Source of the DNA: Escherichia coli
GTDB lineage: Bacteria > Pseudomonadota > Gammaproteobacteria > Enterobacterales > Enterobacteriaceae
NCBI RefSeq assembly: GCF_036507355.1
Contig: NZ_AP027877.1
DNA: 64,000 bases
Strand: one strand, 5' to 3'
Shown here: in pieces, positions 12,360 through 14,627 of the stretch
Position numbering within the stretch: position 1 is the stretch's first letter
How the letters are laid out: each line of letters starts with the position of its first letter
The notes under the pieces: generated by a model
Database searches by the model: none
What the model was told of the DNA's origin: nothing
The model's input: the letters and a program-made list of their open reading frames with translations, nothing else
Made by a program: the position numbers and the translations under genes

Positions 12360-13406
12360 TCAGAAGCGGGTATCTACCGCAGAGGCGAGTTTTTCGACCA
12401 GGCGTTCGGTATCTTCCCAGCCCAGACACGGGTCGGTAATGGATTGACCGTAAGTGAGCGGCTGACCGCCGACGATTTTTTGCGTTCCTTCGCGCAGGAA
12501 ACTTTCCGCCATAATTCCAGCAATCGCCGTAGAGCCATTGCGGATTTGCTGACAAATATCCTCACAAACTTCTAACTGGCGACGGTGCTGCTTCTGGCAG
12601 TTACCGTGGCTGAAATCCACCACCAGATGTTCAGGTAAATCAAACTCGTGCAGCGTATCGCAGGCTGCGGCGATATCATCGGCATGATAATTCGGTTTTT
12701 TGCCGCCACGCATAATAATGTGGCCATACGGGTTGCCGCTGGTCTGATAGATGGTCATCTGACCATTTTTGTCTGGCGAGAGGAACATATGGCTGGCGCG
12801 GGCTGCGCGGATAGCATCCACAGCAATCCGCGTGTTGCCATCGGTACCATTTTTAAAACCTACCGGACAGGAGAGTGCCGAAGCCATTTCGCGGTGGATC
12901 TGACTTTCGGTAGTACGTGCGCCAATCGCGCCCCAACTGATTAAATCAGCAATAAACTGACCGGTCACCATATCGAGGAACTCGGTCGCGGTTGGGACGC
13001 CCAGCTCATTTACCTGTAAAAGTAATTTGCGCGCCAGTTCCAGACCGTGATTTACCCGATAGCTGCCGTTTAAATCTGGATCGGAGATTAGTCCTTTCCA
13101 GCCGACAACAGTTCGTGGTTTTTCAAAATAGGTGCGCATTACGATTTCCAGCCGTGACTGGTACTGGTTGCGCAGCGACTGCAGACGGGTGGCGTACTCC
13201 ATTGCAGCGGTGAGATCGTGGATCGAGCAGGGGCCAATAATGACCAACAGTCGCTTATCTTCACCATTGAGTATTTTTTCAATTCTGCGGCGGGAGTCGG
13301 TGACATGGGTGGCGACGCCAGGCGTTACGGGATACCGTAGCGCGAGTTCGGCGGGCGTTACCAGGCTCTCAATACGCGCAGTACGGAGTTCGTCAGTTCT
13401 GTTCAT
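12360..13406 (-). CDS. aroH: DAHP synthase, tryptophan-sensitive isozyme
   Basis: 348-aa MNRTDELRTARIESLVTPAELALRYPVT...; track ORF extends 41 codons upstream. Confidence 0.93.
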   Translation of the reverse strand: MNRTDELRTARIESLVTPAELALRYPVTPGVATHVTDSRRRIEKILNGEDKRLLVIIGPCSIHDLTAAMEYATRLQSLRNQYQSRLEIVMRTYFEKPRTVVGWKGLISDPDLNGSYRVNHGLELARKLLLQVNELGVPTATEFLDMVTGQFIADLISWGAIGARTTESQIHREMASALSCPVGFKNGTDGNTRIAVDAIRAARASHMFLSPDKNGQMTIYQTSGNPYGHIIMRGGKKPNYHADDIAAACDTLHEFDLPEHLVVDFSHGNCQKQHRRQLEVCEDICQQIRNGSTAIAGIMAESFLREGTQKIVGGQPLTYGQSITDPCLGWEDTERLVEKLASAVDTRF

Positions 13407-13551
13407 TACAAGTCTCAGAAATTTGTTGCTTCTACGGCAGGACTGCCGGGAAGTGATGCGCATCACGATAAACCAATCGCTGCTGATTTCAAGTGCGAGG
13501 TGTGTCACACCTCGCCGGGTGGTTAGCATGATAACAAAAAAATAAGCTAAT

Positions 13552-13569
13552 GCACTAGTTCTCTAGTAC
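13552..13569 (-). promoter_or_regulatory. TrpR operator of the aroH promoter
   Basis: Minus strand GTACTAGAGAACTAGTGC matches the trp-repressor palindrome; overlaps the ppsR stop codon. Confidence 0.8.
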
Positions 13570-14396
13570 ATTCGGCGACTAAGGCCCATGATATCGAGGA
13601 TCTTGGTGGCAATCTCTTCTACCGAATAATTGGTACTGTTAATCCACGGGATCTGATTTTTACGGTACAAGGCTTCCACTTCCGCGACTTCCATCCTGCA
13701 CTGACGAAGCGAGGCATAGCGACTGTTCTCCCGACGTTCCTCGCGAATCGCCGCCAGACGTTCCGGGTCGATAGTCAGGCCGAACAATTTATGCTGAAGC
13801 GGTTTGAGCGACGCGGGTAGCACCAGATTATCCATATCGTCGGCAATAAAGGGGTAGTTTGCCGCGCGGATACCAAATTGCATTGCCAGATACAGACTGG
13901 TGGGGGTTTTACCACAGCGAGAAACACCGAGCAGGATCACCTGAGCCTGATCCAGATTGCGCAACGAAATGCCGTCATCGTGGGCGAGGGTGTAATCAAT
14001 CGCCGCAATGCGCGCATCATATTTATTGAGATTATTAGGGTTAAGGCCATGGGTACGATGAGCAATCGGCGTTGGATCCAGTTTCATCTCTTGTTGTAGC
14101 GGGGCAACCAGCGCCTGAACGATATCCTGGCAAAAGCCTTCACTTTGCAAGATGATGGCGCGAATCTCCGGCAACACGATGGAGTAGAAGACCAGCGGGC
14201 GCACGCCTGTCTGGTGATAAATTGCGTCAATCTGATCCTTCACTGCCCGTGCTCGGCTCTCATTTTCGACAAACGGCAGCGTGATGCTGCTGATAGTGAC
14301 GGGAAATTGTGACATTACTGCGTGTCCTAATACCTCCGCAGTTATTGCCGTACCATCAGAAATATAAAAAACGTGGCGATCAACAGCATTATCCAT
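13563..14396 (-). CDS. ppsR: PEP synthetase regulatory protein (bifunctional kinase/pyrophosphorylase)
   Basis: 277-aa [32 protein letters not shown]... Confidence 0.92.
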
Positions 14397-14627
14397 TTTG
14401 TTCTTCCCGTGATGCAGACATAATTCTATGAAAGCATAAATTAAAAACGCACAGAAGCGTAGAACGTTATGTCTGGTTTATAAAATGAACCTTCAATTTT
14501 ATTTTTTATGAAAACAGTATTTCATTTTTATGGTTTCGTTTATACCGATGGTTTATGTGGAAATTGTCGAAGAGAGCAGATTTGCGCAACGCTGGGATCA
14601 GTCTTAAAAAGTAAAAAAATATATTTG

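What the first reader, a model, noticed from the sequence alone, without database searches (positions are those of the whole stretch)
13552..13569. TrpR operator of aroH lies over the ppsR stop codon
The palindrome GTACTAGAGAACTAGTGC (minus strand) spans the last ppsR codon and stop, so the aroH promoter and operator are embedded in the 3' end of the upstream gene. TrpR binding and ppsR read-through transcription could therefore interfere with each other.
Basis: partly seen in the sequence, partly recalled or inferred. Interest (0 to 1): 0.3.

Follow-up and report, generated by a model that had tools for sequence, protein, structure and literature searches.

The report
aroH TrpR operator overlapping ppsR stop
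This is the long-known binding site of the tryptophan repressor in front of the E. coli aroH gene; it does cover the stop codon of the upstream gene ppsR, a compact arrangement kept across the family Enterobacteriaceae, but it is ordinary, already-annotated biology.

Summary
GTACTAGAGAACTAGTGC lies on the minus strand at 13569..13552. Its first 7 bases are the last base of the ppsR Met codon, the final Tyr codon TAC and the stop TAG (13565..13563).

The window is E. coli chromosome. The site is unique in it and far from a chance match. It shares all 10 core bases (ACTAG/CTAGT) with the trp operon operator. It sits at -48..-31 of a published aroH start site (1788320).

The same register over the ppsR stop is kept in 23 of 53 Enterobacterales loci, all Enterobacteriaceae-type genera. 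In these the Tyr codon is always TAC and the stop is TAA or TAG in 22, while neighbouring codons vary freely. The last ppsR codons are therefore under double constraint.

The claim that the promoter is embedded in ppsR is overstated: only the left half-site overlaps, and the -10 lies downstream. Read-through from ppsR into aroH is published (a ppsR-aroH co-transcript in long-read data). Two 3'-end data sets list no end between the genes. Interference between TrpR and this read-through is plausible but untested. Its textbook precedent is lac O3 over the lacI stop codon.

Verdict: already known, low interest.

The parts
13552..13569 (-). aroH operator for TrpR: GTACTAGAGAACTAGTGC, two CTAG-containing half-sites with centres 8 bp apart
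   Evidence: Sequence read. Unique in the window. 10/10 core and 14/18 overall identity to the MG1655 trp operator GAACTAGTTAACTAGTAC. Invariant in the sampled E. coli variants.
13563..13565 (-). ppsR stop codon TAG, which is the TAG of the left CTAG half-site
   Evidence: ORF end, translation, RefSeq ppsR end at 1788278.
13563..14396 (-). ppsR (ydiA) coding sequence, 277 codons plus stop
13528..13533 (-). -10 hexamer TATCAT of aroH promoter P1, preceded by TGT (extended -10-like). No good -35; the operator occupies that position.
   Evidence: Sequence. It lies 7 nt upstream of the published start site 1788320 = window 13521. A TAnnnT at the same distance from the operator is kept in the other genera.
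13521..13521 (-). aroH P1 transcription start (MG1655 1788320); the operator spans -48..-31
   Evidence: SMRT-Cappable-seq Supplementary Data 2 of PMC6131387. Coordinates converted.
13536..13542 (-). Run of 7 T in the P1 spacer. Together with the palindrome it is what the terminator scan flagged.
13465..13492 (-). aroH promoter P2: TTGAAA, 16 nt, TATCGT, with start site at 13458 (MG1655 1788383). It lies downstream of the operator and is not covered by it.
   Evidence: Promoter scan, published start site 1788383, strong conservation across genera.
14427..14427 (-). Start site (MG1655 1787414) of the published ppsR-aroH co-transcript, which must cross the operator
   Evidence: PMC6131387 Supplementary Data 2 and 3: operon b1703|b1704 starting at 1787414.
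12360..13406 (-). aroH coding sequence (Trp-sensitive DAHP synthase), 348 codons plus stop

Best explanation
The palindrome is the classical operator of aroH. The tryptophan-loaded TrpR dimer binds the two CTAG-centred half-sites. Because the site occupies -48..-31 of promoter P1, which has only an extended -10-like element and no real -35, bound repressor keeps RNA polymerase off P1. The left half-site GTACTAG is at the same time the end of ppsR (atG TAC TAG = Met-Tyr-stop). These bases therefore serve both the protein end and the operator. The overlap is best read as tight gene packing in which a Met-Tyr-stop ending already resembled a TrpR half-site and a right half-site arose next to it. 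It need not be a device in its own right. Shown here: the sequence, the overlap, the promoter geometry, the conservation and the double constraint. Taken from the literature: TrpR binding and repression. Inferred: the evolutionary order and repression by occlusion.
For: Identity and position. Similarity to the trp operator of the same genome, 10/10 core. The start site 1788320 lies exactly 7 nt after TATCAT and puts the operator at -48..-31. TrpR represses aroH (text of PMC5343134). Titles of Kumamoto 1987 and Klig 1988 on TrpR binding to the aroH operator. Conservation: the right half-site CTAGT is in the same register in 23 of 53 Enteroberales loci that keep ppsR-aroH synteny. Double constraint: within those 23, the Tyr codon is TAC in 23/23 and the stop is TAA or TAG in 22/23, while the five preceding codons (-7 to -3) each show 4-6 different codons. 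In the 30 other loci TAC:TAT is 7:6 and TGA is the stop in 14 (Fisher p about 0.001 for each, not corrected for relatedness). Within E. coli, sampled variants differ only outside the 18-mer. Met-Tyr-stop as ATG TAC TAG/TGA also occurs without a right half-site in Rouxiella and Erwinia, consistent with the half-site look-alike predating the operator.
Against: No binding or expression experiment can be run here, and the primary papers (Zurawski 1981, Grove and Gunsalus 1987, Kumamoto 1987, Klig 1988, Hudson 1991) were not readable. In most genera the left half is CTAA because the stop is TAA, so the site is less symmetric than in E. coli. The 23 loci form one clade, so the codon statistics partly reflect shared ancestry; the variable neighbouring codons are the only internal control. 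Operators separate from the stop codon exist (L014 at +20, L033 at +205, Hafnia and Edwardsiella at +61 to +126), so the overlap itself is not needed for regulation.
Confidence: 0.93

Rival explanations
1. Transcription from the ppsR promoter runs through the operator into aroH. Bound TrpR acts as a roadblock, making the co-transcript tryptophan-sensitive too and possibly truncating ppsR mRNA before its stop codon. Conversely, read-through polymerases displace TrpR and occlude P1.
For: A ppsR-aroH transcript starting at 1787414 is listed in SMRT-Cappable-seq data, and ppsR is found in only that one transcriptional context in both media. No + strand 3' end is listed between the genes in Term-seq or in the TRS termini, where the only + strand terminus listed with these genes follows aroH at 1789516. 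Precedent: lac O3 spans the last codon and stop of lacI (sequence checked; the O3 sequence itself is from memory). The abstract of PMC3711431 states that Lac repressor forms a transcriptional roadblock at O3.
Against: Nothing tests it for TrpR. The long-read library was size-selected above 1 kb, so a ppsR-only RNA of about 0.9 kb would have been lost, and 'only one context' is weak evidence. ppsR may simply be too weakly expressed for 3' ends to be called. From general knowledge, TrpR-operator complexes are short-lived compared with LacI, and a ribosome can follow the polymerase to the very edge of the operator. Both points argue for a weak block. Natural uncoupling of operator and stop codon in some genera shows the overlap is dispensable.
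Confidence: 0.2
2. In ppsR RNA the palindrome forms a hairpin that, with the following U run, acts as a leaky intrinsic terminator of ppsR. One sequence would then be an operator in DNA and a terminator in RNA.
For: The terminator scan flags exactly this element: 10 pairs, then AGCTTATTTT. The hairpin is the centroid structure at -11.4 kcal/mol. In Escherichia and Citrobacter youngae, extended stems of -11 to -18 kcal/mol are followed by a T run (L001, L002, L003, L040).
Against: Only 3 of the 10 pairs are G-C. The folding energy of the 71-nt stretch containing it is not unusual for its composition (z = -1.2). The run of seven U starts 6 nt after the basic stem. The T run is absent in most genera that keep the operator. 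No 3' end is reported here in two 3'-end data sets, and a co-transcript exists. My own terminator scan did not separate the two groups of loci cleanly.
Confidence: 0.1
3. A chance palindrome at the end of a gene with no regulatory role.
For: Met-Tyr-stop alone gives GTACTAG or GTACTAA without any selection for binding. The loose core pattern is not significant by itself.
Against: The exact 18-mer is expected 0.01 times. CTAG is about eight-fold depleted in the window, yet two copies sit 8 bp apart here. The right half-site is conserved in register in 23 loci while the flanks vary. It is placed at the -35 position of a mapped start site. The literature reports TrpR control of aroH.
Confidence: 0.01

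Closest known systems
trp operon operator (trpO) and the other TrpR operators of E. coli (trpR, mtr, aroL)
   Same: An 18-bp palindrome with ACTAG/CTAGT cores whose centres lie 8 bp apart. The MG1655 trp operator GAACTAGTTAACTAGTAC, the mtr site GTACTCGTGTACTGGTAC and the aroL site GTACTAGTTTGATGGTAT were recovered with the same scan. All lie inside a promoter of a tryptophan or aromatic-pathway gene.
   Different: From memory of Klig et al. 1988 (not read), the trp operator covers the -10 region and the trpR operator the start site. The aroH operator covers the -35 region (-48..-31). It is also the one whose half-site is made of the last codon and stop of an upstream gene. The trpR operator lies 25 nt after the slt stop.
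lac operator O3 over the end of lacI
   Same: An operator of the downstream promoter spans the last codon and the stop codon of a co-directional upstream gene (lacI ...GGG CAG TGA inside GGCAGTGAGCGCAACGCAATT). Transcription of the upstream gene must cross it. A roadblock role is published for O3 (abstract).
   Different: O3 is an auxiliary operator that works by looping with O1, and the blocked gene encodes the repressor itself (autoregulation). Here the operator is the primary one, the upstream gene (ppsR) is unrelated to TrpR, and no roadblock has been shown.
Read-through operon variants described by SMRT-Cappable-seq
   Same: ppsR-aroH is listed there as one of the RegulonDB operons extended by read-through.
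   Different: That work catalogues transcripts. It does not address repressor binding at the gene junction.

Membership tests
TrpR operator | Near-palindromic 18-mer with two CTAG-containing half-sites (ACTAG N4 CTAGT) | tested here: met
   10/10 core positions. 15/18 to the idealised GTACTAGTTAACTAGTAC and 14/18 to the MG1655 trp operator.
TrpR operator | Lies within the promoter of a tryptophan or aromatic-pathway gene, so that a bound repressor excludes RNA polymerase | tested here: met
   The operator spans -48..-31 of the aroH start site 1788320, and the -10 TATCAT lies 7 nt upstream of that start.
TrpR operator | Bound by TrpR with tryptophan in vitro | not testable with these tools
   Only the titles of Kumamoto 1987 and Klig 1988 were seen in a reference list. 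The papers are not held.
TrpR operator | TrpR-dependent repression of the downstream gene in vivo | not testable with these tools
   Stated in PMC5343134: TrpR negatively regulates aroL and aroH, an interaction conserved in a few closely related Enterobacteriales.
TrpR operator | Conserved in related genomes beyond neutral expectation | tested here: met
   The same register is kept in 23 loci with variable flanks. The 18-mer is invariant in the sampled E. coli variants.
Rho-independent terminator (of ppsR) | G+C-rich stem immediately followed by a U tract | tested here: inconclusive
   Flagged by the scan, but only 3 G-C pairs, -11.4 kcal/mol, z = -1.2 for the surrounding 71 nt, and the run of seven U begins 6 nt after the stem. 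The T run is not conserved outside Escherichia and Citrobacter.
Rho-independent terminator (of ppsR) | Mapped RNA 3' ends at the U tract | tested here: not met
   No + strand 3' end at 17882xx-17884xx in the Adams 2021 tables. No terminus at 17882xx-17883xx and none listed for ppsR in the TRS 2023 tables. None in the Yan 2018 tables. Low ppsR expression and size selection limit this test.
Roadblock operator at the end of an upstream gene (lac O3 type) | Operator overlaps the 3' end of a co-directional upstream gene whose transcription crosses it | tested here: met
   Overlap. Co-transcript from 1787414.
Roadblock operator at the end of an upstream gene (lac O3 type) | Repressor-dependent truncation of the upstream transcript, or tmRNA tagging of its product | not tested
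   No data set that I could reach addresses this for TrpR and ppsR.

The most novel reading that the evidence does not exclude
The element could be a junction device rather than mere packing. Tryptophan-loaded TrpR would sit on the last two codons of ppsR and stall polymerases coming from the ppsR promoter. This would make the ppsR-aroH co-transcript tryptophan-sensitive. It would also yield ppsR messages without a stop codon, whose product is tagged by tmRNA. Tryptophan status would then feed back on PpsR, the regulator of PEP synthetase, and so on the supply of PEP, which is the substrate of AroH. In Escherichia the same palindrome might additionally act as a weak RNA terminator hairpin.
Probability: 0.07. 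Interest if true: 0.5.

Novelty: already known. Interest (0 to 1): 0.14.

Why it matters
It matters little as a discovery. The aroH operator, TrpR control of aroH, the ppsR annotation and even the ppsR-aroH co-transcript are all on record.

The comparative result has modest value. The left half-site of a classical operator is written in the last codon and stop codon of another gene. In the 23 related loci examined, the synonymous choice TAC is fixed, and the stop is TAA or TAG in 22. This is a clean small example of regulatory constraint on coding and stop-codon usage. It also suggests how an operator may have been built beside a pre-existing look-alike.

If TrpR did block ppsR transcription at this point, it would be a second natural case of the lacI-O3 arrangement. 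It would also link tryptophan status to PEP supply.

Tried and rejected
- **Primary literature.** Kumamoto 1987 (by DOI) and Grove and Gunsalus 1987 (PMC212118) are not held. [quoted passage not shown] A full-text search for the operator sequence found nothing.
- **3'-end and start-site tables.** No supplements are held for Dar and Sorek 2018, for the Rend-seq annotation or for the 3'-UTR valve paper. The Cappable-seq 2016 files held no matching coordinates.
- **Rfam.** There is no match at E-value up to 1 in 13300-13700, so no known RNA family lies in the aroH leader or at the junction.
- **Terminator scan.** My own scan of 53 loci did not separate loci with and without the operator cleanly. 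I therefore drop the idea that Enterobacteriaceae lost a ppsR terminator when the operator arose; only some outgroups (Hafnia, Serratia, Pantoea) show a convincing hairpin plus T run.
- **Chance palindrome.** Rejected.
- **Promoter embedded in ppsR.** Rejected as stated: only 7 bp overlap.

Full report
**What is in the sequence**

On the minus strand the window reads ...AGT CGC CGA ATG TAC TAG AGAACTAGTGCATTAGCTTATTTTTTTGTTATCATGC....

The ORF 14396..13563 translates to a 277-residue protein ending SRRMY*, with its stop TAG at 13565..13563. The palindrome therefore covers the last base of the Met codon, the last codon TAC, the stop codon and 11 bases of spacer. The stop TAG is the TAG of the left CTAG half-site.

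The next gene starts at 13406 and encodes a 348-residue DAHP synthase.

**Where the window comes from**

A 701-base query across the junction matches 5423 of 5426 complete E. coli genomes. Many matches are 100% identical, with ppsR and aroH annotated under the match. In MG1655, ppsR is 1787445-1788278 and aroH is 1788435-1789481. The operator is therefore MG1655 1788272-1788289. The conversion is: MG1655 position = 1788278 + (13563 - window position).

**More than chance?**

- With up to three mismatches the 18-mer occurs once in the window, against 0.01 expected.
- CTAG is about eight-fold depleted in the window (15 found, about 120 expected), and two of the 15 copies lie 8 bp apart in this site.
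- The loose core with one mismatch allowed is not significant by itself. The argument rests on the full site, the CTAG depletion and the conservation.

**Identity as a TrpR operator**

The same scan applied to other MG1655 regions recovers three further sites:

| Region | Site |
|---|---|
| trp operon operator | GAACTAGTTAACTAGTAC |
| upstream of mtr | GTACTCGTGTACTGGTAC |
| upstream of aroL | GTACTAGTTTGATGGTAT |

The aroH site has all 10 core bases (ACTAG/CTAGT) and 14 of 18 identities with the trp operator.

A review-type comparative paper states that TrpR negatively regulates aroH, and that this interaction is conserved only in a few closely related Enterobacteriales. Titles in a reference list record in vitro binding of TrpR to the aroH operator: Kumamoto 1987 and Klig 1988. 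I could not read those papers.

**Promoter geometry**

Published SMRT-Cappable-seq tables list three start sites that serve aroH:

| MG1655 start | Window position | Meaning |
|---|---|---|
| 1788320 | 13521 | P1. It lies exactly 7 nt after TATCAT (13533..13528, preceded by TGT). The operator spans -48..-31, where a -35 would be, and no good -35 hexamer exists there. |
| 1788383 | 13458 | P2. It lies 7 nt after the TATCGT of a TTGAAA-16-TATCGT promoter, which the consensus scan also found. P2 is 63 bp downstream of P1 and is not covered by the operator. |
| 1787414 | 14427 | Start of a b1703\|b1704 transcript, that is, a ppsR-aroH co-transcript. |

[quoted passage not shown] I could not read it, so I do not know which pair of promoters it describes.

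Only the left half-site (7 of 18 bp) overlaps ppsR.

**Comparative evidence**

A scan of one genome per species with AroH returned 80 loci.

- ppsR lies directly upstream of aroH in all 52 of these loci that belong to Enterobacterales. With the MG1655 reference region this gives 53 loci. The synteny is absent in Vibrio, Photobacterium and Aeromonas.
- In 23 of the 53 loci the right half-site CTAGT stands in the same register, so the operator starts 4 bases before the ppsR stop. These loci are Escherichia, Citrobacter, Pseudocitrobacter, Enterobacter, Lelliottia, Pluralibacter, Cedecea, Shimwellia, Phytobacter, Siccibacter, Mangrovibacter and relatives.
- Within these 23, the Tyr codon is TAC in all. 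The stop is TAA in 17, TAG in 5 and TGA in 1. The five preceding codons (-7 to -3) each show 4-6 different codons.
- In the 30 other loci, TAC:TAT is 7:6, Phe replaces Tyr in 17, and TGA is the stop in 14.
- The last two ppsR codons are therefore under a second, non-coding constraint wherever the operator is present. The statistics (Fisher p about 0.001 each) are not corrected for shared ancestry. The variable neighbouring codons are the internal control.
- E. coli, E. albertii and C. youngae use TAG, which gives a perfect left CTAG. Most other genera have CTAA on the left and a perfect CTAGTAC on the right. A Salmonella study lists a single conserved CTAG between aroH and ydiA, against two in front of trpL. 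This fits a TAA stop there, but I did not see the Salmonella sequence.
- Within E. coli, sampled variants of a 60-base query differ only outside the 18-mer.
- ATG TAC TAG or TGA without a right half-site occurs in Rouxiella and Erwinia. Budvicia has a degenerate site in the same register. This fits, but does not prove, an origin in which a Met-Tyr-stop ending supplied a ready-made half-site.
- Operator-like sites detached from the stop codon occur in L014 (+20), L033 (+205), Hafnia (+126) and Edwardsiella (+61, +80). The overlap is therefore not required for regulation.

**Read-through and interference**

The co-transcript from 1787414 shows that polymerases do cross the operator. In that data set ppsR appears in only one transcriptional context, together with aroH.

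This is weaker than it looks. The library was size-selected above 1 kb, and a ppsR-only RNA would be about 0.9 kb.

Two independent 3'-end data sets list no + strand end between the genes. The Term-seq tables of Adams 2021 have none at 17882xx-17884xx. The TRS tables list an aroH terminus at 1789512-1789516 and none for ppsR.

Taken together, ppsR has no detectable terminator of its own in E. coli, and its transcripts probably end at the aroH terminator. TrpR on the operator would stand in their path.

Whether TrpR stops them is untested. From general knowledge, TrpR complexes are short-lived, and a ribosome translating ppsR can follow the polymerase right up to the operator edge. Both points argue for a weak block.

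The textbook precedent is lac O3. I checked in MG1655 that it spans the last codon and stop of lacI (...GGG CAG TGA GCGCAACGCAATT). The abstract of a modelling paper states that it forms a transcriptional roadblock for lacI.

**Terminator reading**

The consensus scan flags the palindrome plus the T run as terminator-like, and the hairpin is the centroid structure at -11.4 kcal/mol. Several points count against this reading:

- Only 3 of the 10 pairs are G-C.
- The folding energy of the surrounding 71 nt is ordinary for its composition (z = -1.2).
- The run of seven U starts 6 nt after the stem.
- The T run is confined to Escherichia and Citrobacter.
- No 3' ends are reported there.

I keep it as a low-probability side function.

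**Verdict**

Both are already known biology. The overlap with the ppsR stop can be read off any annotated E. coli genome.

The proposed interference remains a reasonable, untested and probably small effect.

Noticed in passing
window 13452-13467 (minus strand CGTGATGCGCATCACT), at the P2 start site: This palindrome, not the TrpR operator, is the most conserved block of the ppsR-aroH spacer. Its form is GTGAT-N4-ATCAC, with 8-9 of 10 matches to the CRP core TGTGA-N6-TCACA. It starts 52-69 nt (mostly 59-63) before the aroH ATG in 40 of 53 Enterobacterales loci, including Yersinia, Serratia, Hafnia, Proteus and Providencia. A CRP ChIP-seq table for ETEC H10407 lists exactly AGTGATGCGCATCACG at aroH. 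I did not work out its role at P2 (centred on the start site, so probably repressive).
   Followed up: partly
window 13495-13515: A perfect 10+10 inverted repeat GCGAGGTGTG/CACACCTCGC lies at about +7 to +27 of the P1 transcript and just upstream of the P2 -35. The ETEC CRP table lists the overlapping TGCGAGGTGTGTCACA as a second site at aroH. Other genera carry a different CRP-like 16-mer at the same place, for example TGTGATGTGCATCACC in L010 and TGTGATGCACATCACG in L014. It lies about 42 bp from the first site.
   Followed up: partly
window 13435-13448 (minus strand CGGCAGTCCTGCCG): A small hairpin in the aroH leader follows the conserved TTCC. The stem is kept with different loops and some stem changes across genera (CGGCATTGAGCCG, CGGTAAATCTGCCG), which hints at a conserved RNA structure. 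There is no Rfam match.
   Followed up: no
L088 (E. coli strain A39), aligned to window 13543-13546: One E. coli lineage has a 2-bp insertion (TA) in the spacer between the operator and the P1 -10. This would lengthen the P1 spacer while leaving the operator intact.
   Followed up: no
MG1655 1787648, minus strand = window about 14193 on the + strand, inside ppsR: The Adams 2021 Term-seq table lists a strong 3' end antisense to ppsR. This implies an antisense transcript running into ppsR from the aroH side.
   Followed up: no
L033 2140-2345 (soil MAG with PpsR 94% identical to E. coli): About 205 bp lie between the ppsR stop (ATG TAT TAG) and an intact operator GTACTAACAAGCTAGTAC, which still begins with GTACTAA as if it carried a copy of the old ppsR end. 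The nature of the insert was not examined.
   Followed up: no
L083 369-413 (MG1655 slt-trpR junction): The trpR operator GTACTCTTTAGCGAGTAC starts 25 nt after the slt stop, so the -35 region of the trpR promoter probably lies within the last slt codons. This is another case of a TrpR-controlled promoter packed against the end of an upstream gene.
   Followed up: no
whole window: CTAG occurs only 15 times in 64 kb, against about 120 expected from dinucleotide-preserving shuffles. This is the well-known CTAG avoidance of enterobacteria.
   Followed up: yes
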